Of a stretch of 52,244 nt of DNA, positions 28,359-41,776 are shown piece by piece. The translations under genes were made by a program, and so were the position numbers. Location: positions 124,001-176,244 of the forward strand of contig CAYSBJ010000002.1 in the NCBI GenBank assembly GCA_964429275.1, in the 5' to 3' direction. Origin of the DNA: an uncultured Pseudomonadota bacterium (GTDB lineage: Bacteria; Babelota; Babeliae; Babelales; JAUPTZ01). Numbering within the stretch: the first letter of the stretch is position 1; the number at the start of each line of letters is the position of its first letter. The notes under the pieces were generated by a model. The model had not been told where the DNA came from and did not search any database. It saw only the letters and a list, made by a program, of their open reading frames with translations.

Positions 28359-28566
28359 GAGAAACAGAAATCTTTATTGCGGCAGCGATAGCTTTTTTGG
28401 GCTCTTGATATGCTATGCGTGCAAAGGGGGATCGTTTCACTTGTCAGCAATTTTCCCTTATTGAAATGTTTTTATGACTGTAGAGTGACGGATGAGGAAT
28501 GATCGTGTAGGATGGCGGCTCTTGCGGGGTTTTTTGCCTGCTGTAGCCAAGGAAGGAACGAGTTGT

Positions 28567-29379
28567 ATGATGATCGATACCCACTGTCACCTCAATATTA
28601 TGGTAGATAAAAAGCCAGAAGAGCTTTTGCGCCAGGAACATTTCCCTGCTATAGAACACATTTTACGAGAAGCTGCTGCGTCTAATCTTTCTTATCTTAT
28701 TACCGTGGGTACCTCTATCCCTGAATCACAGAATTGTGTTGCAGTAGCAGATCGATATCAATCGTCTCCTATTGTTAAAGCTACCATTGGGGTGCATCCG
28801 TGTGATATCACCCAGCCGATTGAAGAGATTATTCGTGAGCTTGAGGCAATTGTTTTTTCTCCGACTGGAAAACATGTGGTAGCGATTGGTGAAATTGGTC
28901 TTGATTATTATCATCAGCCATACGACAAGGAACTTCAGGCGCAAGTGTTTATTGCGCAACTTGAGCTGGCCAAGAAGCATAATTTGCCGGTTGTTATCCA
29001 CATTCGTGATGCCGGAGCAGATGCATTGACGATTTTAGAAAAATATAAAAATGACCTTTGTGGTGTTATTCATTGTTTTTCGCTCGATTTGGCTGCTGCC
29101 GAGAGAGTTATTTCTTGGGGATGGTATATTGGCATTGATGGTCCAATTACCTACCCAAAAAACCATGATTTACGCTCTGTAGTTGCTACAGTGCCATTGA
29201 CTGGCATTGTGATGGAAACTGACGCCCCGTTCTTGCCGCCGCAGCATTTGCGGGGCAAAAGGAATAGTCCGGCTAATCTTGGCATTATTGCACAGGCTAT
29301 TGCTGATGCGCGAGGGATTTCACTTGCAGAAGTTGTTGCGCAGACAGCAAAAAATGCTCGGGCATTGTTTCGGCTTTAG
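28567..29379 (+). CDS. tatD: TatD-family deoxyribonuclease
   Basis: MIDTHCHL, GVHP, AIGEIGLDY, IHIR, HCFS and ETDAPFL. Start at 28567 (ORF track 28492). Confidence 0.95.
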   Translation: MMIDTHCHLNIMVDKKPEELLRQEHFPAIEHILREAAASNLSYLITVGTSIPESQNCVAVADRYQSSPIVKATIGVHPCDITQPIEEIIRELEAIVFSPTGKHVVAIGEIGLDYYHQPYDKELQAQVFIAQLELAKKHNLPVVIHIRDAGADALTILEKYKNDLCGVIHCFSLDLAAAERVISWGWYIGIDGPITYPKNHDLRSVVATVPLTGIVMETDAPFLPPQHLRGKRNSPANLGIIAQAIADARGISLAEVVAQTAKNARALFRL

Positions 29380-31304
29380 AATTCTTCGGTTGTTCTTTTT
29401 ATAAGCTGTTCAGTGTACTCGCTAAGCCCTTCTTTTGATTCTACGCGTTTGAGGTGTTCGTAGGCATACTGAAGAACTCGTTCATCAAAGCCTTCTCGCG
29501 CCAGAAGGTCGAGGGCGATGACAGTAGCATTGATGCCGGGCTTGAGAGTGTATGGATAGGTGAACGACCCATCATTGTTTTTGTAAGCAGCAACGTGATG
29601 ATTTGTGAATTGGCTTGTTTGTTCATCACTAAGCTTGGTTAAATGAAAATAGTGGGTTGCTAGTATGAGCAGACTACTTGGGCACTTACCCAGTTCTTTG
29701 CCGATACCATAGGCTGCTGCAGCGCCAGCTGCTGGATTGGTACAACGAAACATCTCATCCATGACGGTAAGTGCGTATTCGTTTTCTTTTAGATGCATAA
29801 TTTGTGTGATTAGCTCATTGGCACGGCGAACTTCAGCTCGGTGTTGCGAGAGCGCATTACCGGCATCCTCAACGATATTGAGGTAGGTATTTAGGTGGGC
29901 AAACGGTGTTAAGTGTATTGCTTTAGCAGGTACGACGGTAATTGTTTGGGCGAAAAGGGAGGCTAGGACAATCCCCTTGATGATAGTTGATTTACCTCCG
30001 GCATTTGGGCCGGTAATAGTCATGTTGCGGGCCATTTTTCCACCGAGCTCTATGCTGTTGGCAATCGCACGGTTTGGCTGCAAATTAGGGTGCCAGAAGC
30101 CTTCAATGGACAGGTGTGGACCGCTGCCCAATTTCTCATACGTAGCGTAGCAGTAATGGTTTTCCAAGTTTTGATACTCGCGGACCAATGTTGCAATACT
30201 TAAGAGGGCATCAAGTTCGCCAATGGCACTCAAAACGGATGTCAGACGGCTTTGAATTGATAGGAAGCGCGACAGTGAGGCGAGTACTGAGCCCAGTCCA
30301 AGTGAAAAGTAACCCTTATCTTGTTGAAATGCTTTACTCGTAAGGCTGTGAAAAAAGGTGTGTATATCGGTATTTTGTTTGCCACTGAATTTTTGAATGA
30401 CTTTGATAGGTGCAATATTAGCAGAAGAAAAACGACGACCATATGCCCCTACGTTGATGAGTGTTTCTCCGAGCGCAACGAGACTATGCAGTTTTTGTTT
30501 GAGTGACGCGATCAACATGCGGCGGTTGCGCAGCTTGGAATACATTGTTTTCCATGCAATGGCAAGTCCCAATGCGGTAAAGCTTACCGAAACGCCGTTA
30601 AATATTTTTTCTTTTGTGGAAGCACGGCCATCTTGTTCTTTCTCGAAGAAAAACGTTTTTAAAAACTGTGTCCCGGCAAGACCAAAAATAGGAGAAAGAC
30701 TTTCAAAGACATCATAGAATCGACGCCTAAGTTCTAGGCTTATCGGCGAACGGAGCTTGGCGATCTTGCCACTGAAAAGTAGTTGGGCCATATTGTTGCC
30801 GTAAATGATGTCATTTTTATTCCAGAGCGCAAGCAGTTGCGGTTCTTTTTCTGCAAATGGGGTAATGAGGTTTTGCAAGGCAATACGCCCGCCATCGTTT
30901 TCTACCAAGAATTTGATTACTCGTTGACGTTCTTTCAGGAGCGTGATATCCGTGGTTGGTGTGAGTAACATATTGGCGAGGGAGCATTCACCGAGCGTTG
31001 TTTTAGTACGACTAATTCCTTTGAGTACTGTAAAATGTGGCTTGCTTGTATCATAGAAAAGGATGTTGAGGTCATTAATTGTCGTTTTATTAAGAGTGGT
31101 TTTTTGTGCAATATTGCGGTGTTTACTTCCATCTTTGAGGATTGATAGGACTGTTGCATACCGTTCATGCGAGCTCAGAATTTCATCCTCTTCTTTGAGT
31201 GAAGAAAGCCCAGGCATCATGGCATCAGCAATAACATCATAACTTGTTTGTGCAGTAAGAGGATTGAAAAATAGTGCTATTAATAGCACGAAGGAACGGT
31301 TCAT
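29376..31304 (-). CDS. MutS-related ATPase D (signal peptide, lever-like region, hydrophobic hairpin, domain V)
   Basis: Walker A GPNAGGKST, Walker B VMDEMF and ATHY intact; signature degenerate (EDAGNALSQHRAE). No mismatch-binding domain I. Confidence 0.9.
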   Translation of the reverse strand: MNRSFVLLIALFFNPLTAQTSYDVIADAMMPGLSSLKEEDEILSSHERYATVLSILKDGSKHRNIAQKTTLNKTTINDLNILFYDTSKPHFTVLKGISRTKTTLGECSLANMLLTPTTDITLLKERQRVIKFLVENDGGRIALQNLITPFAEKEPQLLALWNKNDIIYGNNMAQLLFSGKIAKLRSPISLELRRRFYDVFESLSPIFGLAGTQFLKTFFFEKEQDGRASTKEKIFNGVSVSFTALGLAIAWKTMYSKLRNRRMLIASLKQKLHSLVALGETLINVGAYGRRFSSANIAPIKVIQKFSGKQNTDIHTFFHSLTSKAFQQDKGYFSLGLGSVLASLSRFLSIQSRLTSVLSAIGELDALLSIATLVREYQNLENHYCYATYEKLGSGPHLSIEGFWHPNLQPNRAIANSIELGGKMARNMTITGPNAGGKSTIIKGIVLASLFAQTITVVPAKAIHLTPFAHLNTYLNIVEDAGNALSQHRAEVRRANELITQIMHLKENEYALTVMDEMFRCTNPAAGAAAAYGIGKELGKCPSSLLILATHYFHLTKLSDEQTSQFTNHHVAAYKNNDGSFTYPYTLKPGINATVIALDLLAREGFDERVLQYAYEHLKRVESKEGLSEYTEQLIKRTTEEF

Positions 31305-31308
31305 ATGA

Positions 31309-33279
31309 TCAGATACCTATGCTTGCAAGTTGTGCTTCCATTTCAGCAATCATTGCGGAAGGAAGTTTTTCTTCTTTGAAGATAGTCGTTGACAGTTGTG
31401 GGCTTTGCACGCCAGGTGTGAGCGTATAGGTTTGTACGGTTTTACCGTCAAAAGCGCTTGGGAGTATGTAGTTTGAAAATTGCAGAGAGTTTTGTCTTCC
31501 TAAAATACTCAGCGATAAAAAATTTGTGGCATGGAGCGCTATGCTGTTTGGTAGTTCGCCCAAGTAGCGGGCGACAGCGTATGCGGCTGCCTGGCCAGCA
31601 CCGGCTTCTGTTCCGGTGAAGGTTGCGTCAGCGATGGTAAAGCTAAAATGTCCGGCAGGCATTTGCTTTATGTGGTTAAATAATTGAAGGGCGCGGTACA
31701 GTTCTGTTTTGAACAGAGAACGATCATTTGCCAAGTCGTCTTTGATGTTGGCATAAATATTGATGCTGCTGTAGGCCGTTGCAGTGTAGCTGCGTGCCAG
31801 ACCAATCCCAATTGATTGAGCACATAAGACGTTGAGTGCAATGCTTTGAAGAACGGTTGACTTGCCACTTTCAAAGATGCCCGTGATAATAGCATTTTGG
31901 GGGTTTTTATCGCCAAGTTTAATCGAATTTAGTACCGGTTTTTCACGAGAGAGCACATGCCAAAAGTTTTGTATGTCAAGAAGAGGTCTGTCTGCGCCTT
32001 CAACAAAAGTGGTGAAGCAAAGTGGTTTCTCTTTGCTATCCCGTGACTTAAGATACCATGATGCAAGGCTACTATATGCATCAAAAGCGCCTACAAGCCC
32101 AATTCCTTTAAGAATGCTTTTGCGACAATTGCGGAGCAGATCGATTATGAGAATTAAGTCGCCACCCAAAACATGAGCCGAGGTTCTGCTGTTGAATGCT
32201 GTACCCATAATAATATCGCGCAATTTTTTTACTTTTGGATGGTCTATAGTGAGAGTAATGTCTATTTCATCACTGAGACATTGCAGTGCTGGATTTTGAT
32301 CAAAGTGTTCTTTGAGCCGTTCTGTTGCGGTAAAAAAGACTTTAAGGGGAAGTAGTGCGTCGTAAAAATAATTCATTGCCTTGAATCGGGCTCGTATCCA
32401 CGCAACAATACCAGGAAGCTGGATACCAGCATTATATGCCAGCAGAACTGCAAGTGTTGCTCCAACCACGCGGTGATCAACATTGAATTTGCTTTCTATT
32501 TCTTCTTTTGATGTGTGAGAATATCCCAAAATCCCTTTTATATTGAGCATGGGAAGTGCGATAATGCCGGCTCCATACCAAATATCGCCAAACATTTTGG
32601 CAACACGATTCCACCCTTGATTGCCTCGTGGGCCAAAACTGCGAAAGAAAAACTCATGCTGATAAATACGTAGTCCTTTGTCGTAAAGAGGATGTTCTTT
32701 GCTCGTTAATCCAAGGAGTTGTTCTTGCACCTGTTTGATGCTGGCACAGATGTTAATGATATCGGTAAGAACAGATGGATTCTCGCATAAAGCTTGGATA
32801 GCTATTTGCCTGCTTTGTATGCGCTGCACGTCAATAATAGGTGTTGTGAGGAGGCGGGCTAAAAATATTTTACCCAAAAGAGTTTGCATTTCTGGGGCAA
32901 TACCGCTCAGAACGCTTGGTTCTTGGTCGATAAGGCGAAGACTTTGCCAAGTGTCCGGCTCAAAAAGGGCCCGTTTTTCAAGCGCATACGAAGGAGTATC
33001 AAGTTGTGACATAAGCTCGAGTGCCATCTCGGTTTGCGTGGGTAAGGATAGAGAGAAGGGGGTTGAAAGACTATCCTTTTGGTCTGTAGTTACATCGGTA
33101 AGCTGTTGGGTGGGTCTTTTTTGCTCACCAAGGCTCTGGCGAAAAGCAATGAGTAAATACTCATATTGCTGTTGGACAGGAGTGAGTTTGCGTGCTTCTT
33201 TAGGCAGGATGAGAGCTTCACCGGAAAGAGTGGTCAGGCAGCAGATGAGCAGAAAAGAAGAGAAATGCCAACGGACCAT
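31309..33279 (-). CDS. MutS-related ATPase C, catalytically degenerate
   Basis: Walker A GIFESGKST, Walker B TIADATF (no catalytic Glu), ATNF (no His); signature DDLANDRSLFKTE largely retained. Confidence 0.88.
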   Translation of the reverse strand: MVRWHFSSFLLICCLTTLSGEALILPKEARKLTPVQQQYEYLLIAFRQSLGEQKRPTQQLTDVTTDQKDSLSTPFSLSLPTQTEMALELMSQLDTPSYALEKRALFEPDTWQSLRLIDQEPSVLSGIAPEMQTLLGKIFLARLLTTPIIDVQRIQSRQIAIQALCENPSVLTDIINICASIKQVQEQLLGLTSKEHPLYDKGLRIYQHEFFFRSFGPRGNQGWNRVAKMFGDIWYGAGIIALPMLNIKGILGYSHTSKEEIESKFNVDHRVVGATLAVLLAYNAGIQLPGIVAWIRARFKAMNYFYDALLPLKVFFTATERLKEHFDQNPALQCLSDEIDITLTIDHPKVKKLRDIIMGTAFNSRTSAHVLGGDLILIIDLLRNCRKSILKGIGLVGAFDAYSSLASWYLKSRDSKEKPLCFTTFVEGADRPLLDIQNFWHVLSREKPVLNSIKLGDKNPQNAIITGIFESGKSTVLQSIALNVLCAQSIGIGLARSYTATAYSSINIYANIKDDLANDRSLFKTELYRALQLFNHIKQMPAGHFSFTIADATFTGTEAGAGQAAAYAVARYLGELPNSIALHATNFLSLSILGRQNSLQFSNYILPSAFDGKTVQTYTLTPGVQSPQLSTTIFKEEKLPSAMIAEMEAQLASIGI

Positions 33280-33316
33280 ACTGCAAAGCCTCTAGGTAAG
33301 TGCTGAAAAACCTTTG

Positions 33317-35332
33317 TTACAAAAGCATTCTATCGCGTTTTAGCCCTTTTTTATAGAGGAATTCTTCGGCTCTGGCAAGAATGTCGGAATCAAAGCCTGC
33401 TTTTCTGGCCAAATCAATAGCAATAACTTGGTACGAGCGCCCTGGCTCGAGTTTAAAAGTATGAATAATATCGCCATTTTCCTCTTTTACGATTGAGACA
33501 TGGTAATTAGTAAAAAAGTGGTTGGTATGGTGCGGCAGGGTGGTGAGTCGGGTAAAGTGGGTGGCGGCGATAGGCATACAGTTTGTGAGTTTCGAGAGTC
33601 CGTAGCAAATGCCAAAGGAGGCGGCTTCACCTTCTGCAGGGGCAGTGCTGCTGAGGAGTTCATCAACGATGATAAAAGAAAATTTGTCTGGGGGAAGATT
33701 ATAAGCACTGTGCACAATTGTACTGATTCGGTCTTCTTCTGCTTGGAAGAGTGAACGGCCTTGAGCGATATTGTCAACCGGGTTCAAGAAGGTAAGGATT
33801 TTGCTCATAGGGGTGAATGTGACATCGCTTGCTGGTGCAATGCCGAGTGTTTGTCCCAGGAGCACGCAGAGGGCAATAGACCGTATATTCATGGATTTGC
33901 CGGAGGCATTGGGGCCAGTAACGACCATGCCAGGATTATTGTCATTTCCTAAAGTTATGCTGTTCAAGACTGCTTTTTCTGACGGGATGAAGGGGTGATA
34001 ATAATTGGTTGCAGCGAGATAGGGGGTGGTACTTTGGCAATAACGAGCAAAGCACCAGGGAGTTGCAGAGTTTGCTTTTTCTTGCATGAGCGTGGCCAGG
34101 CTTAGATACGCCTCTAGTGCACCGATACCCCTGAAGACCTCTGAAAAGCTCGCTTTTATGTTAAGAAACTGCGGGATAGCGTGGAGTACTTTGCCAATGT
34201 AGGACAGGTGGTAGGAATTTGATTGAAATGCTGGATTTGCAAGATTTGTAAGGAATGCTTTTTGTTTTTTGTTTGTTCCTAGTGCAAATTCTTTAATGGC
34301 GGCATGGTTGTAAAGATGCTCGCTGAGTATCGGATCATTCGCGATGAGTGCAAAGATGCGCTGTATGATTGTGCTGCAGGTTATGAGCACTCGAGTGCGC
34401 TGGCGAATTTGCGCGGCGAGATTTGCATATGACTGCATTGAGCGTTTCCATTGGTCAAACTCGATTAACGAAGGAACCATTGAGACAATTGTAGAAAGAA
34501 AAGCATAGAGATTTTCTTCATTTCTTGCTTTTTTCTCTTCTGCGTTCAGAGGGGCATCGTCACTCTTTATTGAGGTTACAGCTTTAAGCCACCCGGGTTG
34601 AGCACTTGCATTTTCCATGCCACGTCCGTATTTCATGTGCATCGTGCGGATTATGGTATTTATGGTATCTAAAATCAGGAAATCGATAACCGGTTTCCAG
34701 TCCTTACGGCGACGGTTAAATTCGAGCCAGAAGGCCCCATTCGCCTCGTTATATTTTTTAAAATTACCTGCGTAGAAAGTCTTCTTTACATAATTGGTGT
34801 ACAAAATATCATCGGTATTCCAGAGGCTGTAGAGGTTTTCTTCAATAGTTGCTAGTTCTTGAAATAATGCCTTCAGTGCCTGCGCAAGCGGCTGGTTGTT
34901 CATGAGGTGCGTGATGATCACTTGATGGGTTTGAAGCACGGTTACGTTACTGGATGGATGGGCCATGAATGTTGCCAATCCTATCTTCCCATTAAGCGAG
35001 GAGCCGCGATACATCTTTTCTAAAAGTGTATAGTCAGGACGTTGATCATTGTAAAAAAAGAGATTGAGATCACGTATTGTTTTGGTATCAATAATTTCTT
35101 CAGCTGCAGTTTCTTGCTTGGCACCAAGCAGCGAAAATAATGCTTCATGCTTTTCATAATCGCTCAATGCTACTGCTGGAAATGTTAGTTTTTTCCCATG
35201 GGTGAGATTTATTTTTTGGTTTAATTTTATTGCAGGAAAGTTTTGAAGAATTTCCTGCCGTATTCTTTCGTATGGGCTGGCATACAGAATGGGCAATGTG
35301 CTCAGAAGAATACTTATTAAAAGTAGCATCAT
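33317..35332 (-). CDS. MutS-related ATPase B' (paralogue of 37389-39515)
   Basis: GPNASGKSM, DNIAQGRSLFQAE, IIVDELLSST, ATHF; signal peptide. Confidence 0.9.
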   Translation of the reverse strand: MMLLLISILLSTLPILYASPYERIRQEILQNFPAIKLNQKINLTHGKKLTFPAVALSDYEKHEALFSLLGAKQETAAEEIIDTKTIRDLNLFFYNDQRPDYTLLEKMYRGSSLNGKIGLATFMAHPSSNVTVLQTHQVIITHLMNNQPLAQALKALFQELATIEENLYSLWNTDDILYTNYVKKTFYAGNFKKYNEANGAFWLEFNRRRKDWKPVIDFLILDTINTIIRTMHMKYGRGMENASAQPGWLKAVTSIKSDDAPLNAEEKKARNEENLYAFLSTIVSMVPSLIEFDQWKRSMQSYANLAAQIRQRTRVLITCSTIIQRIFALIANDPILSEHLYNHAAIKEFALGTNKKQKAFLTNLANPAFQSNSYHLSYIGKVLHAIPQFLNIKASFSEVFRGIGALEAYLSLATLMQEKANSATPWCFARYCQSTTPYLAATNYYHPFIPSEKAVLNSITLGNDNNPGMVVTGPNASGKSMNIRSIALCVLLGQTLGIAPASDVTFTPMSKILTFLNPVDNIAQGRSLFQAEEDRISTIVHSAYNLPPDKFSFIIVDELLSSTAPAEGEAASFGICYGLSKLTNCMPIAATHFTRLTTLPHHTNHFFTNYHVSIVKEENGDIIHTFKLEPGRSYQVIAIDLARKAGFDSDILARAEEFLYKKGLKRDRMLL

Positions 35333-37305
35333 ATGCGATCCTTCTTTGGCAAGTAATGGTGCGGGTTGTTTAGAACGTCGCGCATCTTTTTTGTCATGAC
35401 TGATGGGAGCCCTATTTGTTCTAATAGGTCAGGGGCTATTTGTTGTGTTGTCGCACCAAATTGTATGTGGTAGGGATATACAAAATTGCCGGTGGCATCT
35501 TTTTGTACCACAACCTTCATGTTTTTAAAGCGCGTAGGGTCTTGAGTTTCTAGGTCAACTAGGCCAGAGAAGTGCGTTGATAACAGTGTGATGCTATTTG
35601 GGTAGGTTGCGAGTTTTTCCGCCACAGCAAAGGCGAGGGCCTCTCCTACTCGTGCCTCGGTGCCGGTGCAGATTTCATCTAAGATGGTCAGGCTAAATTG
35701 ATTTTGGGGAAGTTCGTCGATACGCTTGAGTAATGCGAGTGCGCGGGCTAATTCTGCACGAAAGAGCGATTGTTGCTTGCTTGAATCATCGGTAATATTG
35801 AGATAGGTACCGATGCGATGAAAAGGAGTAAAAACAAATCGCCTTGCCGGCGCAATGCCAATTGATTGCCCTAAGAGGCAGCCAAGAGCTAATGCTTTCA
35901 TGATAGTTGATTTGCCACCTGCGTTAACACCACTGATGATGAGATTGTTCGGGTGCTGAGGCGCGGCAAATGACAATGTGTTTAACACGACTTTATCTGC
36001 CGGAATGGCTGGATGATAAAAATCTTGCGCATGAATAATGGGCGTTTGTGCATCTGTGATAAATTCAACAAAGCAGTACGGGGCATTGCTTTGTTGCCGC
36101 TCGCGCATGAGTGTGGCGATGGACAGATAGGCATCGATATACCCAACAAGGACAAGGCCATTGAGCATGGTTGGCAGGACTTTTTTTGCTTCAAGGAGTG
36201 CATTTGCCACAGTACCTTGGTTTGACAAGATGCTTTGCATGATCCCTGGAATGCTGCCATCTTTTGGAGGGGTAAAGGCGCCACTAGAGAGGCGTTTTGC
36301 AAGTGGCTTTAATTGTGGCGCATAATCGATCGCATAACGTTCACTATAGACAGAAAACTCGGAGAATTCGCTCGTTTTTGCGGCTGCAGTGATGATTGGA
36401 AGCTGTAATAAAAGTACGTGTACAGCAGAAAGGCGTCGCTGAATGTAGGCCGTTGTTTCAGCCAAATCTTTGAGGAGGCCAATCGTTTCGTAGGCGCGAT
36501 AACCAGAAAGCGCAGAAATGAGCGCAAAAACCGCTATCAATCCAGCATTCTGGTGCTCTTCGTATGACTTGATTCCTTGTGCAGCTTTTTTTCCCATTAT
36601 GCCTGCGGTATAGCAGAAAAATGGCAACATACAGATTGAGGTTAGGTGCAGCGCATTGAGGGCAGTACTTCTCATGAATGGTGAAGGAATTCGACCAAAG
36701 GTATCATACCAATTCAGGATAATCTCTTGATTAAAAAAATCAGTTGCACGGAGCATAGCAATCAGATTTACTTCTTCTGCAGCAACGCATGTGACAGCGG
36801 CTTGTAGTGTATTGAAAAGGTGGTCATCGGTCGTAAGTCGTTTAATGAATTGCTGGCGCCCTTGTAGGCATGAAAGATCAGTAAGGGGGTCGAGCAGCAG
36901 TCGCGTGAGTGTTAACTCACCGACCATCGTTTTTGTCCGTTTAAGAGAGCCGACGACGGTTTTTTCCGAAATTCTGCTGGCATTTGTGAAAAATTCTAAA
37001 TTCTGCCAGACCTCTTGGTCAATAACGTTGCTTTGTGGTAATGGGTCGGTTGCAGCGATGTAGCTTTTGAGCTTTTCAAGAGACGCGAATACGAGGTCTG
37101 CACGTGTGAGGCTTGGAAGCTCAAGTTTGCGGCTTGTCGTAGTAATGCCTTCATCTGGGTTATTGTGCTCTTCCTCTGGCTTAATGAGCATGCCAACGAA
37201 TGCTGCTTCGATATCTTGGTATCGGTTTTGTATGGTGGGGACGCTACTCCAGCAAGTGCCGGAAAAAAGGGCAATGCCCAAGAAAAGCAGCGGATAAGAA
37301 TACAT
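35329..37305 (-). CDS. MutS-related ATPase A' (paralogue of 39518-41776)
   Basis: GVNAGGKST, DDSSKQQSLFRAE, TILDEICTGT, STHF; signal peptide; ATGA overlap with the next gene. Confidence 0.9.
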   Translation of the reverse strand: MYSYPLLFLGIALFSGTCWSSVPTIQNRYQDIEAAFVGMLIKPEEEHNNPDEGITTTSRKLELPSLTRADLVFASLEKLKSYIAATDPLPQSNVIDQEVWQNLEFFTNASRISEKTVVGSLKRTKTMVGELTLTRLLLDPLTDLSCLQGRQQFIKRLTTDDHLFNTLQAAVTCVAAEEVNLIAMLRATDFFNQEIILNWYDTFGRIPSPFMRSTALNALHLTSICMLPFFCYTAGIMGKKAAQGIKSYEEHQNAGLIAVFALISALSGYRAYETIGLLKDLAETTAYIQRRLSAVHVLLLQLPIITAAAKTSEFSEFSVYSERYAIDYAPQLKPLAKRLSSGAFTPPKDGSIPGIMQSILSNQGTVANALLEAKKVLPTMLNGLVLVGYIDAYLSIATLMRERQQSNAPYCFVEFITDAQTPIIHAQDFYHPAIPADKVVLNTLSFAAPQHPNNLIISGVNAGGKSTIMKALALGCLLGQSIGIAPARRFVFTPFHRIGTYLNITDDSSKQQSLFRAELARALALLKRIDELPQNQFSLTILDEICTGTEARVGEALAFAVAEKLATYPNSITLLSTHFSGLVDLETQDPTRFKNMKVVVQKDATGNFVYPYHIQFGATTQQIAPDLLEQIGLPSVMTKKMRDVLNNPHHYLPKKDRI

Positions 37306-37374
37306 AAGATGCCTGTCCTTGGTACCATGTGGTTACGGACAGGCATCTTAGTTTTTTTAATGAAGCTAAATCAA
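37305..37374 (-). promoter_or_regulatory. 14-bp perfect inverted repeat covering the RBS/start of 35329-37305, overlapped by a candidate internal promoter
   Basis: TAAGATGCCTGTCC (37305-37318) pairs with GGACAGGCATCTTA (37337-37350). Minus strand shows TTGATT-N18-TAAGAT at 37345-37374. Confidence 0.6.
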
Positions 37375-37388
37375 TGGATGATCAGATA

Positions 37389-39515
37389 TTAAATTAGACG
37401 GCCGCGTTCAATACCTTGTTCTTTGAGGAATTGGTCGGCAAAATCTAGAATTTCAGGGTCAAAACCTTGTTGGCGCGCTAAGTCGATGGCGATAACTTGG
37501 TGCGCACGGCCTGGTTCTAACTTGAATGGATGTGTGAAGCTTCCGTCCGTGTTTCTTATCACAGATACGTGATAATTCATGTAAAACCCATTGGTATTTT
37601 GTGGCAGTGTCGTCAATTTTACAAAGTGAGTCGCCATGATTGGCATGCAATTTGGGTATTTTGATAAGCCGTAGCAAATGCCAAGGGTAGCCGCTTCGCC
37701 CTCAGTTGGCGCAGTACTGCTTAATAATTCGTCTGCAACGATGAAGGCAAATTGGTCTTTTGGTAAGGCGACTGTTTCTTGGACGATATACTTAATGCGG
37801 TCTTCTTCTGCTTGAAACAATGAACGGCCTTCAGCGATATTATCTACCGGGTTCAGATAAGTCAGCATCTTGCTCATTGGGGTTAGAAGGGCATTTCGTG
37901 CTGGTGCAATACCAAGCGATTGGCTGAGTAGAAGGCAGAGCGCAATGGAACGAATATTCATCGACTTCCCAGAGGCGTTTGGGCCGGTAACAATCATGCC
38001 TTGATGGCCATTCTCTCCGAGCACAATACTGTTGAGGACGGACTTGTCTGCCGGTATCAGTGGATGAGAATAATCTGCCAAGTTTAGATAGGGGGTGGCC
38101 ATAGTGGCATAACGAGCAAAGCACCATGGTGTTGGTGATGCATTCTTTTCATCGATAAGAGTGCCAATGCTCAAGTAGGCTTCAAGAGCACCCAGCGTTT
38201 TGAACAATGGGCGGAAGTTGTTTCGTATACGTAAGAATTGCGGTACCGCTTGCAAAACTTTACCAACGTTGGCTAAGTAGTAACTATTCGAGGTAAAAGT
38301 ACTGCTTGAGATGGTAGCAAAAAACTTCTTAAGCTTTGCATTTTCTCCGTTTGCAAAAGCGGCAAGATCAGAAAAGCCTTCAAGGTTGTCGCAGAGGAAT
38401 TGCTCTTCTTGAATCGTTTTGTGGATATCAAGAACAATACGTCGCCATTGAACGAAAACAGCAAAGCGAGTGCGTAGATAGGTGACGAATGCCTTATATG
38501 CTTGTACGCTTTTCCACCAGGTTGGTATGTTTGCTGCTATTGGCACCAGTATCGCGAACGCGGAGAGAGTCATGAGTGCATTTATCTGATTAAGTTCTTT
38601 TTTGCCGCGCACGAAGTCGGGGATAGAGGCTATTTGACATAGAAGGTCGTAAGTCACCGGTTTCCATGGACCAACGCCAGCGAAGACTTTTATTTTTTCG
38701 CCATTGGGGAGTGTAATATAATGACCATCCCTAAAACGTTTTTGTGCTTCTGAAAAAGGGATCTCAGCTACTTTATGGACCCCGTAGGGAACCAATATTT
38801 GCGTAATGAGCCCGAGGCCGACTTCTATTTTTGCTAGAGAAATGAGAGGTTTAATGTCATTCATGCGACGGTTAAATTCGAGCCATGCAGCATCACTGCT
38901 GTTACGATAGCGATTTTGATTACCCTTGTAGAATGTTTCCTGCGCAAACTTGCTGTAGATAAGGTCGTTATCGTTCCAAAGGCTATACATTTTCCCTTCA
39001 ATGCCGGCGAGTTCTTTAAAAAGCGTAGCTAGTTTTTTGCCTAATTGCGGACGTGCCATGAGATAGCGCGCAAGATTTTGGCGCCTTTCGAGTTCTTCCT
39101 GATTTGTTGAAGGCATAACTATCCACTTTGCTTGCGCCATTTTTCCGTTCAAAGAAGCGCCGCGATAAGTAGATTCCAGAATGGTATAGTCAGGGCGATC
39201 TATGTTGTAGAAAAAGAGGTTTAAGTCGGTAATAGATTTGGCATCAAGGCATGATGCTACCTCTTCAACATTTTTATCCCCCCCCAGAAATTGGAGGAGA
39301 ATGTTATGCATTTCATATGGAGAGAGTTTATATGCTGGGAATGAGACGCCATTTTTCCCTTTTTTTACTTCCTGAGTTGTGCGAACTGCGGGGAAGTTTT
39401 TGAGTATCTCTGCTCGCAGTAACTCATATGGCTGCGTATTTTGTCCCATAAGCGCCATGCTTAGTCCGCAGAAAAAGAGTGTCTTGGTAATAGTCTTTAA
39501 TGAGAAACGTTTCAT
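37389..39515 (-). CDS. MutS-related ATPase B
   Basis: GPNASGKSM, DNIAEGRSLFQAE, IVADELLSST, ATHF; signal peptide; two central hydrophobic segments. Confidence 0.9.
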   Translation of the reverse strand: MKRFSLKTITKTLFFCGLSMALMGQNTQPYELLRAEILKNFPAVRTTQEVKKGKNGVSFPAYKLSPYEMHNILLQFLGGDKNVEEVASCLDAKSITDLNLFFYNIDRPDYTILESTYRGASLNGKMAQAKWIVMPSTNQEELERRQNLARYLMARPQLGKKLATLFKELAGIEGKMYSLWNDNDLIYSKFAQETFYKGNQNRYRNSSDAAWLEFNRRMNDIKPLISLAKIEVGLGLITQILVPYGVHKVAEIPFSEAQKRFRDGHYITLPNGEKIKVFAGVGPWKPVTYDLLCQIASIPDFVRGKKELNQINALMTLSAFAILVPIAANIPTWWKSVQAYKAFVTYLRTRFAVFVQWRRIVLDIHKTIQEEQFLCDNLEGFSDLAAFANGENAKLKKFFATISSSTFTSNSYYLANVGKVLQAVPQFLRIRNNFRPLFKTLGALEAYLSIGTLIDEKNASPTPWCFARYATMATPYLNLADYSHPLIPADKSVLNSIVLGENGHQGMIVTGPNASGKSMNIRSIALCLLLSQSLGIAPARNALLTPMSKMLTYLNPVDNIAEGRSLFQAEEDRIKYIVQETVALPKDQFAFIVADELLSSTAPTEGEAATLGICYGLSKYPNCMPIMATHFVKLTTLPQNTNGFYMNYHVSVIRNTDGSFTHPFKLEPGRAHQVIAIDLARQQGFDPEILDFADQFLKEQGIERGRLI

Positions 39516-39517
39516 GG

Positions 39518-41776
39518 TTATTCCTTTGTCGGTACGTAGCGGTCAGGGTGATTAAGAACATCACGCATTTTTTGTGTCATAACAAGTGGTAGACCTATTT
39601 TTTCAAGGAGGTCAGGGGCGATTTGTTGTGTTGTCGATCCTTCGTAGAGGCCGTATGGATACACAAATTCACCGTTTTCATCTTTTTCTACGATAACTTT
39701 CATATTTTTATAGAGATCTTTTCTATTCTTCGCCAGCGTTGTAAGACCAGGAAAGTGCGAGGCGAGGAGCAAGAGGCTATTTGAGTACATGCCAAGTTTT
39801 TTGGCAATTGCAACAGCAAGTGCTTCCCCTTCTATGCGTTCGGTACCAGTACAAATTTCATCCAAGATGGTAAAGCTGAATTGATTGCGTGGCAGTGTAT
39901 TTACGGTGCTAAGCAGCTCTTGTGCCCGGGTGATTTCAGCGCGGAAGAGTGATTGTTGCTTGCTCACGTCATCAGTGATATTGAGGTAAGTGTTGATGGT
40001 ATGAAATGGCGTAAATGAGAACGAACGTGCCGGCGCTACACCAAAGACCTGGCCAAAGATGCAGCATAAAGCAATTGCTTTCATGTGTGTTGATTTACCA
40101 CCTGCGTTAACGCCGCTTATCATGATGCTGCTTGGGTTATTATTGGTTCCTATAGCGATCGAATTGGTGACAACCGTTTTTTCATTGACCACTGGGTGAT
40201 GGAAATCTGTTGCATTGATAACAGGGGTCGATTGATTTTCTAAGATTTCTACGAAACAGTATGGCGCGTGCGACTGCTTTCGTTCTCGAAGCAGCTTTGC
40301 TACGGAAAGGTAGGCGTCAAGGTGGCCAATGAGAATCATGCCATCACTTGCTTTTGCAATAACTTTTTTTGCCTCAAGAAGAGCGTTCGCAACGTCCCCC
40401 TTGCCAGAAAAAACAGTTTTAAGTGTTCCTGGCATGCCCCCATCGGCCGGTGGTACAAATTTATTCTTGTCAAGGCGACGAGCTAATTCTTCAAGTTCGA
40501 CTTCTGTAGTGTCAGCGTATCGTTCACTTTGTACCCTTAATTCGCTTACCATTTGTACGGCTGGCAAGCTGTTGATCGCTGCTAATGCACGGAAAAGTGC
40601 GTTAACCGAAGAAAGGCGCCGTTGAATGTACGCTGCGGTCTGCGCGTCGCGGCGTAGTTGCCCAAATACGCTGATGGTAACAAACGTCATGTACGCGCCA
40701 AAAATACCTATAGCGGTTGGTATAAATGCTTTAAGCGTTTTATAATTGCTGCGATTCTTCATCTCATTGATGGCTTGAGTTACCTGAGATTCAATTTGCT
40801 GATCAGTTTCATGAGATCCGCGAAACCGCCGGAGCATTTTCCGACTCCTGCGAGCTGCACTGGCACAAGAGCCATCAAAATCAGTAATGAACTTAATGGC
40901 AGCAACGTCAAGAATTGTTGCGCTGAGTGCGCCTACGGCAAAGGTGAACATAGATAGACCAGCTTGCAAGTTTAGGGCGCCGCTAATGGCTTTTGATGAT
41001 TGTAAGATTCCTACTGTATTGTAGGAATTGAGAATATGGTCTTGTCGCATGCTGTCAGTGGCGAGCATAAGACTAATGAGGCTTTCTTCCTCTTGTGCCA
41101 CTGCTTTGATGATGGCACAGAAATCTTCAAATACATTGTCATCTTCGACAAGTAAGCGAATAAATTTTTGTCGTGCTTTGATGATATCAGCGTTTGTTTC
41201 TGGGTCTAAAAGCATACGAGTATAGATAAGCTCACCGATTGTTGTTTCGGTGCGCTTCGTGGCGCCTACGACGGTTTTGTGCCCGATGCGGCTGCTGTTG
41301 GTGAACAACTCCAGATTTTCCCATACATTACGATTGGTAACGGCAGTGCGTGCAATAGGGTCCGCGTTTGCGTTAAAAAATTTGAGCTTGCCCAGTGAGT
41401 TGAATATGAGGTCCGCCCGATCAAGTTTTGGAAGCGAATAAGGGTTTTTGGCAAAAGCGGCCTTAAAGAATCCCCAGAGTTGCTGGAAGCCATTTTGTAA
41501 TGCAGGAGCCGGCTTTAATTTTTCCAACTCTTTCTTTGTCAGCATGCTGGTGTAGAGTTTTTCGATATCCTGGTAACGATTATCGATTACAATAGCCGGT
41601 TTTTTGCTCGCAGTGGCACTCTTTGGCTTGTTAGCTGTGGTTGGCTTTTTTGGAGTTGCTGTTTTGTTGATGGTTGTTTTTCGCGTTGTTTTCTTTGGTG
41701 CTACCGGCAACAGAAGGCCAGGCATCAAAAGACAAAACGCGCTCAGCAGAGCGCGACGGCAGGTATGATTAAACAT
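39518..41776 (-). CDS. MutS-related ATPase A
   Basis: GVNAGGKST, DDVSKQQSLFRAE, TILDEICTGT, ASHF; signal peptide followed by a K/T/P-rich linker; two central hydrophobic segments. Confidence 0.9.
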   Translation of the reverse strand: MFNHTCRRALLSAFCLLMPGLLLPVAPKKTTRKTTINKTATPKKPTTANKPKSATASKKPAIVIDNRYQDIEKLYTSMLTKKELEKLKPAPALQNGFQQLWGFFKAAFAKNPYSLPKLDRADLIFNSLGKLKFFNANADPIARTAVTNRNVWENLELFTNSSRIGHKTVVGATKRTETTIGELIYTRMLLDPETNADIIKARQKFIRLLVEDDNVFEDFCAIIKAVAQEEESLISLMLATDSMRQDHILNSYNTVGILQSSKAISGALNLQAGLSMFTFAVGALSATILDVAAIKFITDFDGSCASAARRSRKMLRRFRGSHETDQQIESQVTQAINEMKNRSNYKTLKAFIPTAIGIFGAYMTFVTISVFGQLRRDAQTAAYIQRRLSSVNALFRALAAINSLPAVQMVSELRVQSERYADTTEVELEELARRLDKNKFVPPADGGMPGTLKTVFSGKGDVANALLEAKKVIAKASDGMILIGHLDAYLSVAKLLRERKQSHAPYCFVEILENQSTPVINATDFHHPVVNEKTVVTNSIAIGTNNNPSSIMISGVNAGGKSTHMKAIALCCIFGQVFGVAPARSFSFTPFHTINTYLNITDDVSKQQSLFRAEITRAQELLSTVNTLPRNQFSFTILDEICTGTERIEGEALAVAIAKKLGMYSNSLLLLASHFPGLTTLAKNRKDLYKNMKVIVEKDENGEFVYPYGLYEGSTTQQIAPDLLEKIGLPLVMTQKMRDVLNHPDRYVPTKE

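What the first reader, a model, noticed from the sequence alone, without database searches (positions are those of the whole stretch)
29376..33279. Complementary degeneration of the composite ATPase site in the C-D pair: one live site, one dead site
Established: in MutS/ABC ATPases each site combines the Walker A, Walker B and His motifs of one subunit with the signature loop (DDxxxGxSTF-like) of the other. Seen: protein C (31309-33279) has lost its cis motifs (GPN to GIF, Walker B DE to DA, TH to TN) but keeps the signature DDLANDRSLFKTE. Protein D (29376-31304) keeps GPNAGGKST, MDE and ATHY but has a decayed signature, EDAGNALSQHRAE. Inference: all the decay falls on one composite site of a C-D heterodimer and spares the other, while neither homodimer would have a complete site. 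This parallels heterodimeric ABC exporters and is the strongest sequence evidence here for obligate heterodimers. It also argues that C is maintained rather than decaying.
Basis: partly seen in the sequence, partly recalled or inferred. Interest (0 to 1): 0.88.

Follow-up and report, generated by a model that had tools for sequence, protein, structure and literature searches.

The report
MutS-like pair sharing one dead site
Two neighbouring MutS-like ATPase genes of an uncultured Dependentiae bacterium have changed in matching ways, so that a C-D pair would have one working and one non-working ATP site, as known from some ABC transporters but apparently not yet described for the MutS family.

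Summary
C (31309-33279, minus) and D (29376-31304, minus) are the last pair of six tandem MutS domain III+V paralogues in a 1.2 Mb Candidatus Dependentiae genome. I scanned 32 columns conserved in 120 other family members. D-clade proteins deviate at only two, both in the trans-acting signature loop (D>E, F>H). C-clade proteins deviate at nine, including the E. coli N616, E694 and H728 equivalents, and at none of the four signature-loop columns. The new states are fixed, not drifting: GxFESGKST, DATFTGTE and TNF in C, SQHRAE in D. C has dN/dS 0.12, like its paralogues. C and D are adjacent in 9 of 9 testable contigs. C is sister to the A paralogues and D to the B paralogues, so the pair duplicated as a unit. 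An early-branching pair (L070) shows an intermediate state. Corrections: D keeps the signature serine, C keeps the Walker A lysine, and "decayed" should read "replaced and fixed". The change arose once, so the orthologues are not independent replicates. Verdict: a new variant of a known kind.

The parts
31309..33279 (-). Gene C: 656-aa MutS domain III(partial)+V paralogue with a non-catalytic ATPase head and a consensus signature loop
29376..31304 (-). Gene D: 642-aa MutS domain III(partial)+V paralogue with a consensus ATPase head and an altered, fixed signature loop
31855..31881 (-). C Walker A, GIFESGKST (residues 467-475). The Asn of G-P/V-N is replaced by Phe. F469, E470, S471, G472 and K473 are invariant in 14 C-clade proteins.
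31702..31740 (-). C signature loop, DDLANDRSLFKTE (residues 514-526), at family consensus. D514, D515, R520, S521, L522, F523 and E526 are invariant.
31606..31641 (-). C Walker B, FTIADATFTGTE (residues 547-558). Asp is kept; the catalytic Glu is replaced by Ala (12 of 13 in the clade, Ser in the others).
31519..31533 (-). C H-loop, HATNF (residues 583-587). The His of TH is replaced by Asn (13 of 13).
29985..30011 (-). D Walker A, GPNAGGKST (residues 432-440), at consensus. G432, N434, G437, K438 and S439 are invariant.
29832..29870 (-). D signature loop, EDAGNALSQHRAE (residues 479-491). S486, Q487, H488, R489, A490 and E491 are invariant in 14 D-clade proteins. The family consensus is DD....S-L-F. 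S486 caps helix 487-503 in the model.
29736..29771 (-). D Walker B, LTVMDEMFRCTN (residues 512-523). D516 and E517 are invariant.
29649..29663 (-). D H-loop, LATHY (residues 548-552). T550 and H551 are invariant.
33317..41776 (-). Upstream paralogue pairs A1-B1 (39518-41776, 37389-39515) and A2-B2 (35329-37305, 33317-35332). All cis and trans motifs are at consensus. They serve as comparators and are the source of the C-D pair by duplication.

Best explanation
C and D are the two subunits of a MutS-type (ABC-class) ATPase heterodimer. In MutS dimers each ATP site is built from the Walker A, Walker B and His motifs of one subunit (the head) and the signature loop of the other (the tail). Here the site made of D's head and C's tail keeps every consensus residue and is the only hydrolytic site. 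The site made of C's head and D's tail has lost the catalytic Glu, the His and the Asn that pairs with it. It keeps the P-loop Lys/Ser/Thr and the Walker B Asp, and D's tail offers a fixed Ser-Gln-His-Arg instead of Ser-Leu-Phe. I infer that this second site still binds ATP-Mg but does not turn it over. It would then act as a stable latch or allosteric site that holds the two ATPase domains together, as in heterodimeric ABC exporters, so that one hydrolysis event per cycle opens and closes the dimer. Shown: the motif states, their fixation, purifying selection, gene linkage, co-duplication and stepwise two-sided change. Inferred: the physical heterodimer, nucleotide binding without hydrolysis, and the latch role. 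The cellular substrate of the whole family is unknown. The family lacks MutS domains I, II and IV and carries N-terminal hydrophobic leaders.
For: (1) MutS composite sites with a trans signature loop (residues 659-670, Ser-668) and the Asn-616/His-728 pair, Asp-693 and Glu-694 are described in passages of PMC2857095. C and D align to these positions. (2) Unbiased scan of 32 family-conserved columns: D (14 sequences) deviates at 2, both in the signature loop. C (13 sequences) deviates at 9, including N>F 13/13, E>A 12/13 and H>N 13/13, and at none of the 4 signature-loop columns. The A and B clades keep all of these. (3) The replaced residues are invariant across proteins down to 42-43% identity, and C's ATPase core is its most conserved part. 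(4) dN/dS is 0.116 for C and 0.070 for D against 0.105-0.112 for A1, B1, A2 and B2 (G000 vs G004). C is 0.046 for G001 vs G002. (5) C is followed directly by D in 9 of 9 testable contigs. The gap is 4 nt in the window, against 37 and 83 nt between pairs. (6) Trees: C is sister to A (support 0.90-0.92) and D is sister to B (0.75-0.91), with matching branching order inside the C and D clades. (7) The earliest-branching pair, L070, has the C-like protein with N>P and H>N but DE kept, and the D-like protein with F>H only. In G005, C has E>S and D has lost the Ser too, so change accumulated on both sides of the same site. (8) The same two-sided pattern defines degenerate sites in ABCC proteins, where ATP stays bound (passages of PMC2860590), and in TM287/288, where the site keeps the NBDs in contact (passages of PMC5216877). 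(9) The D model (pLDDT 80.5) matches MutS and MSH chains over about 560-700 aligned columns (Foldseek E 1e-17 to 1e-18, TM 0.43-0.52).
Against: There is no physical evidence of a C-D complex. The pattern arose once, on the stem of one clade found in 6 of 6 genomes of one family and 0 of 255 other genomes of the order at E<=1e-55, so the many orthologous pairs are one evolutionary event. D keeps the signature Ser in 13 of 14 clade members plus the Glu, so a D homodimer could be active. Other family members have lost the Walker B Glu without an adjacent partner (L025 DD, L044 DS). One orphan (L043) has both head and tail altered, so degeneration in this family does not always follow the complementary rule. 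The AlphaFold model of C is poor exactly at the Walker A, signature and Walker B regions (pLDDT below 50 at 459-473, 506-532 and 548-561; mean 64.4). The head may therefore be structurally remodelled rather than simply inactive. All six proteins start with a signal-peptide-like segment, which raises the question of where ATP would be available.
Confidence: 0.65

Rival explanations
1. Pairing is promiscuous or different. A-type subunits (A1, A2, C) combine freely with B-type subunits (B1, B2, D), or all six form larger assemblies, so C also pairs with B and D with A. The dead head of C and the altered tail of D would then often sit in different dimers.
For: C is flanked by a B-type gene on one side and D on the other. 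A and C are one type and B and D the other, so interfaces may be compatible. Eukaryotic MSH2 pairs with several partners (passages of PMC12292046).
Against: Two contigs (L068, L070) carry only the C-D pair within 9 kb on each side. C-D spacing is 4 nt against 37 nt for B2-C. This reading does not explain why D's only two deviations from family consensus lie in the tail, nor why C-head and D-tail changes accumulate together.
Confidence: 0.13
2. C and D work as separate homodimers. C is a non-hydrolysing, ATP-binding switch or scaffold, D is an active ATPase with a lineage-specific signature, and the mapping onto one composite site is coincidence.
For: Bacterial MutS proteins typically form homodimers (passage of PMC12292046). 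D keeps the signature Ser and Glu. Walker B Glu loss occurs in unpaired family members L025 and L044.
Against: Linkage holds in 9 of 9 contigs, the pair co-duplicated, and the trees mirror each other. The placement of D's 2 deviations among the 4 tail columns has a chance of about 0.012, and C's head-only pattern adds to this. The changes are two-sided and stepwise.
Confidence: 0.1
3. The C-head/D-tail site is not dead but rewired. The gamma-phosphate-sensing His lost from C's H-loop is supplied in trans by D's signature helix (H488, with R489 as a finger). The site would still hydrolyse ATP, at least in early-branching lineages such as L070 that keep the Walker B Glu.
For: H>N in C and F>H in D are present together in every pair, including the earliest-branching one, which still has DE. 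H488 and R489 are invariant and sit in the first turn of the helix capped by the signature Ser. From my own knowledge of ABC signature motifs, that is the part of the motif that faces the gamma-phosphate.
Against: 12 of 13 crown C proteins have Ala and the rest Ser at the catalytic Glu position, which in ABC ATPases abolishes hydrolysis. No structural model of the dimer could be made.
Confidence: 0.1

Closest known systems
Heterodimeric ABC exporters with one degenerate and one consensus nucleotide-binding site (ABCC proteins including CFTR; TM287/288; BmrCD)
   Same: The site is a head-to-tail composite. Non-conservative changes at or next to Walker B in one subunit, together with changes in the signature of the other, inactivate one site. 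The Walker A Lys is kept. The degenerate site is reported to hold ATP and keep the domains together (passages of PMC2860590; PMC5216877).
   Different: C and D are MutS-family, not transporter, ATPases. They have no ABC_tran domain and no transporter membrane domain. Their signature is the MutS S-x-F helix cap, not LSGGQ. The resemblance is convergent.
Eukaryotic MSH heterodimers (MSH2-MSH6, MSH2-MSH3, MSH4-MSH5)
   Same: They are MutS-family obligate heterodimers made of two diverged paralogues with functionally asymmetric ATP sites (passages of PMC12292046; PMC2857095).
   Different: C and D are bacterial and lack domains I, II and IV by Pfam. From my own knowledge, not checked here, both heads of MSH dimers keep canonical Walker B Glu and His, so no site is degenerate.
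Bacterial MutS1 and MutS2 homodimers
   Same: They share the domain III/V fold and the composite ATPase. The D model matches E. coli MutS (7oto, TM 0.52) and human MSH chains.
   Different: Scores are far below the NCBIfam cut-offs: 51-130 bits against 480-642 for MutS1 and 72-86 against 400 for MutS2 (no MutS2 match for C). There is no mismatch-binding, connector, clamp or Smr domain. C and D have N-terminal hydrophobic leaders, which none of 32 canonical MutS proteins has. They occur as tandem paralogue pairs.
Uncharacterised MutS_V(+MutS_III) proteins of giant-virus MAGs and Bacteroidota
   Same: They are about 590-720 aa with the same two Pfam domains (Atlas look-alikes of a D orthologue). 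385 relatives were found in viral contigs, up to 39% identical over the best aligned segment of the ATPase domain.
   Different: All 80 examined are single genes with consensus N, S, F, DE and H. Whether they correspond to the published MutS7/MutS8 subfamilies (named in PMC3749498) was not tested.

Membership tests
MutS superfamily (ATPase domain V) | Pfam MutS_V (PF00488) above the gathering score | tested here: met
   C scores 47.2 bits, D 88.2 bits and A/B 90-113 bits; the cut-off is 30.2.
MutS superfamily (ATPase domain V) | Core/lever (domain III) plus ATPase fold like solved MutS | tested here: met
   The D model (pLDDT 80.5) matches MutS and MSH chains at Foldseek E 1e-17 to 1e-18, TM 0.43-0.52. 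Pfam MutS_III is sub-threshold for C (21.9) and D (33.0 against 34.1). The C model is too poor to judge.
MutS1 (mismatch repair MutS) | Full-length equivalog score (NF003810/TIGR01070) and domains I, II and IV | tested here: not met
   Scores are 46-130 bits against cut-offs of 480 and 641.7. No MutS_I, MutS_II or MutS_IV hit at E<=0.01. A canonical 826-aa MutS lies elsewhere in the genome.
MutS2 | TIGR01069 score and a C-terminal Smr domain | tested here: not met
   Scores are 72-86 bits against a cut-off of 400, with no hit for C. No Smr hit.
ABC-class dimer with one degenerate composite site (functional class) | Catalytic Walker B Glu and H-loop His replaced in one subunit while the Walker A Lys and Walker B Asp are kept | tested here: met
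   C has E>A in 12/13 and H>N in 13/13, with K473 and D551 invariant.
ABC-class dimer with one degenerate composite site (functional class) | Signature motif deviates in the partner subunit only | tested here: met
   D has F>H in 14/14 and D>E in 12/14. C's signature is at consensus.
ABC-class dimer with one degenerate composite site (functional class) | The other composite site is fully consensus | tested here: met
   D has N434, K438, S439, D516, E517 and H551 invariant. C has D514, D515, S521, F523 and E526 invariant.
ABC-class dimer with one degenerate composite site (functional class) | The two subunits form a physical heterodimer | not testable with these tools
Only indirect evidence exists: linkage in 9 of 9 contigs, co-duplication and mirrored trees.
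ABC-class dimer with one degenerate composite site (functional class) | The degenerate site binds but does not hydrolyse ATP | not testable with these tools
   This needs biochemistry and is inferred from the motif states only.
Known anti-phage defence proteins | Match to a PADLOC model | tested here: not met
   No family at E<=0.001 for any of the 6 proteins. The neighbours are housekeeping genes.

The most novel reading that the evidence does not exclude
The C-D pair is a rewired, not merely crippled, MutS engine. When C lost its own gamma-phosphate-sensing His and Asn, D gained a His-Arg pair on the signature helix that reaches into the same site, so the sensor moved from cis to trans. The resulting single-stroke heterodimer is one of three such bacterial MSH-like pairs that carry export leaders and may act outside the bacterial cytoplasm, for instance in the protist host.
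Probability: 0.12. Interest if true: 0.8.

Novelty: new variant of a known kind. Interest (0 to 1): 0.58.

Why it matters
Bacterial MutS proteins are generally described as homodimers, and heterodimers are seen as a eukaryotic development (passages of PMC12292046). This locus shows a bacterial lineage that built A/B-type MutS-like pairs and then, in one pair, turned one of the two composite ATP sites into a fixed non-catalytic site. That is the solution heterodimeric ABC exporters reached independently. My full-text searches found no paper on MutS paralogues of Dependentiae, and none of the 12 papers listed out of 135 hits for a degenerate site in the MutS family concerned one. If confirmed, C-D would be a natural one-site MutS-type motor. 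It would be useful for separating the roles of the two ATP sites in MutS-type clamps. It would also be a clean case of convergent evolution of asymmetric ABC-class ATPases. Finally, it gives a concrete handle (co-expression of two genes) on a large, uncharacterised family shared by Dependentiae and giant-virus MAGs.

Tried and rejected
Complex prediction for the C and D ATPase halves with ATP and Mg was not available, so no model of the interface exists. Whether D H488 and R489 face the nucleotide in C's head is therefore open.

The AlphaFold model of C was too weak at the motifs to use (mean pLDDT 64.4).

An IQ-TREE run with ultrafast bootstrap timed out. The trees are FastTree LG+gamma with SH-like supports only.

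Independent replicates of complementary degeneration were sought among 83 family ORFs from 40 loci of relatives, 72 database relatives and 80 viral-contig relatives. No convincing second case was found. The G021 four-gene array has one member with N>H next to one with F>L, which is too weak to count. L043, L025 and L044 are degenerate but unpaired.

A search of the contig behind L070 for further paralogues failed because the record is not held.

Expression: no RNA holder was listed among the sequencing runs.

A defence-system reading is rejected: there are no PADLOC hits and the neighbourhood is housekeeping.

A pseudogene or decaying-copy reading of C is rejected: dN/dS is 0.05-0.12, the frames are intact in all orthologues, and the ATPase core is the most conserved region.

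The promoter and terminator scan gave no signal above shuffles: 27 promoter-like sites against 22.7 expected and 12 terminator-like sites against 17.6.

Earlier-findings look-ups held nothing on this locus.
Full report
What is there. The window is part of a 1.21 Mb, 8-contig genome. Close relatives are deposited as Candidatus Dependentiae or Babeliales MAGs. Between 29376 and 41776 six ORFs of 642-752 aa lie head to tail on the minus strand: A1, B1, A2, B2, C and D. All six match Pfam MutS_V above threshold and MutS_III weakly. None reaches the NCBIfam cut-offs for MutS1 or MutS2, and none has MutS domains I, II or IV. The genome also has a canonical 826-aa MutS and one further paralogue elsewhere. 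Neighbouring genes are housekeeping: TatD, a class II tRNA synthetase, TrkA/TrkH, SSB, RNase H, HflX-like GTPase and DnaE. There is no PADLOC match.

The observation. The quoted motifs are all present at verified coordinates. Alignments to solved MutS chains place C's F469, A552 and N586 at the Asn of GPN, the Walker B Glu and the His of TH. They place D 479-491 opposite E. coli DDLASGRSTFMVE. Passages of PMC2857095 state several points about MutS:
- It has ABC-type composite sites.
- The signature loop (659-670) of the opposite subunit completes each site.
- Ser-668 caps a helix whose dipole points at the triphosphate.
- Asn-616 and His-728 pair up on ATP binding.
- Asp-693 and Glu-694 form the Walker B motif.
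Three refinements apply. C still has a formally intact P-loop and the Walker B Asp. D still has the signature Ser and Glu. C's nearest paralogues have GVN rather than GPN.

Is it more than chance? I built a profile of the ATPase domain. I then took the 32 columns that are at least 85% conserved in 120 other family members and asked where each clade deviates.
- The D clade (14 proteins) deviates at two columns only, D>E (12/14) and F>H (14/14). Both lie in the signature loop.
- The C clade (13 proteins) deviates at nine columns. These include N>F (13/13), E>A (12/13) and H>N (13/13), and none of the four signature-loop columns.
- The A and B clades keep all of these residues.
By my own post hoc arithmetic, the chance that D's two changes both fall among 4 of 32 columns is 6/496. 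Among 80 relatives from viral contigs, none differs at the five key positions.

Fixed, not decaying. Fourteen C-clade proteins, down to 42% identity, keep F469, E470, S471, G472, K473, D551, T553-E558 and the whole signature invariant. Fourteen D-clade proteins, down to 43%, keep S486-Q-H-R-A-E491 and all head residues invariant. C's ATPase core is its best-conserved part. Between G000 and G004, dN/dS (NG86) is 0.116 for C and 0.070 for D, against 0.105-0.112 for the four A and B genes. It is 0.046 for C between G001 and G002. More distant pairs are saturated at synonymous sites. D's loop is better described as replaced than as decayed.

Linkage and history. C is followed directly by D in the window, in G001, G002, G003 and G005, in G004 (where the C tail sits on the D contig), and in metagenome contigs L067, L068 and L070. 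That is 9 of 9 testable cases; L069 ends inside C. Six further C/D database pairs share the same longest-contig length, which is consistent with one contig each, but adjacency was not seen. Spacing within pairs is 2 nt, a 4-nt overlap and 4 nt. Spacing between pairs is 83 and 37 nt. In FastTree trees of the ATPase domain, C is sister to A (0.90-0.92) and D is sister to B (0.75-0.91), with matching internal order. An A/B-type pair was therefore duplicated as a unit. At E<=1e-55 the C clade is found in 6 of 6 genomes of one family and in 0 of 255 genomes of the other families of the order.

An intermediate. The pair on L070 branches first in both the C clade (support 1.0) and the D clade (0.996). 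Its C-like protein already has N>P and H>N but keeps Walker B DE. Its D-like protein has F>H but keeps the DD...GR start of the loop. In G005, C has E>S and D has additionally lost the Ser. Changes therefore accumulated stepwise on both faces of the same site. This is the strongest argument that the two faces meet. These steps lie on shared branches of one lineage, so this is not a statistical replicate.

Mechanism. The best reading is a head-to-tail C-D heterodimer. It would have one consensus site (D head, C tail) and one non-catalytic site that probably still binds ATP (C head, D tail). This matches what is described for ABCC proteins, where Walker B of NBD1 and the signature of NBD2 are altered and ATP is retained for minutes (passages of PMC2860590). 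It also matches TM287/288, where the degenerate site keeps the NBDs in contact (passages of PMC5216877). In the D model (pLDDT 80.5) the signature Ser caps helix 487-503, so H488 and R489 lie in its first turn. From general knowledge of ABC signatures, that turn faces the gamma-phosphate. This allows a bolder reading in which the sensor His moved from cis to trans.

Against and open. No physical evidence exists. D-D could be active. Unpaired family members with DD or DS Walker B motifs (L025, L044) and an orphan with altered head and tail (L043) show that other routes to degeneration occur. All six proteins begin with a signal-peptide-like segment. The same is true of 10/12 C-clade, 10/13 D-clade and 40/69 other family proteins, but of 0/32 canonical MutS proteins. 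This leaves the site of action, and so the ATP supply, unexplained.

Novelty. Full-text searches found no paper on MutS paralogues of Dependentiae or TM6. Of the 135 papers matching the terms for a degenerate site in the MutS family, none of the 12 listed concerned one. Passages of PMC12292046 describe bacterial MutS as homodimeric and say that some MutS subfamilies remain uncharacterised. I rate this a new variant of a known kind: asymmetric ABC-class ATPase dimers, here in the MutS family and in bacteria.

Noticed in passing
window 29376-41776 (N-termini of all six ORFs): Every paralogue starts with a signal-peptide-like hydrophobic segment. The same holds for 10/12 C-clade, 10/13 D-clade and 40/69 other family proteins, but for 0/32 canonical MutS proteins. 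An exported or membrane-anchored MutS-type ATPase is unexplained.
   Followed up: partly
window 39518-41776 (A1 residues 270-298 and 348-374); also A2, B1 and C mid-regions: Two moderately hydrophobic segments sit in the middle of several paralogues, roughly where the D model has a long helical hairpin at 187-219/230-295. In MutS the clamp domain is inserted into domain III (boundaries quoted in PMC12292046). This may be a membrane hairpin; D lacks it.
   Followed up: partly
L014 5228-7810 (G001 orthologue of C): This C orthologue is 861 aa because of an insertion of about 200 aa, rich in charged residues, in the mid-region. The ATPase domain is unchanged. L067 and L068 have similarly long C proteins.
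   Followed up: no
L072-L151 (viral contigs): 385 stretches in IMG/VR contigs, mostly giant-virus MAGs, encode relatives of this family, up to 39% identical over the best aligned segment of the ATPase domain. All 80 kept are single genes with consensus motifs. Atlas look-alikes of a D orthologue are also labelled Nucleocytoviricota and Bacteroidota. Gene exchange between protist parasites and giant viruses, or binning contamination, was not resolved.
   Followed up: partly
L043 5124-7271; L025 3422-5323; L044 4800-6719: Other degenerate family members have no adjacent paralogue. L043 has GPDN, SQL and DK, so head and tail are both altered. L025 has Walker B DD and L044 has DS.
   Followed up: no
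L067 3010-4632: A 541-aa ORF upstream of the A gene matches the ATPase profile but has no recognisable Walker A, signature, Walker B or His. It is probably a decayed extra paralogue.
   Followed up: no
window 33317-35332 and 37389-39515 (B2, B1): B-type proteins have GKSM instead of GKST (5 of 9 in the B clade) and DELLSSTA instead of DE..GT. These are milder, conserved peculiarities of the B head.
   Followed up: no
G000:C2:384217-384792 (outside the window): An eighth MutS_V paralogue (732-aa frame) lies alone 230 kb away. Its relatives in G003 form a tandem pair (L060).
   Followed up: no
window 29376-29379: The stop of D overlaps by 4 nt the end of the convergent TatD-family DNase gene at 28492-29379.
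   Followed up: no
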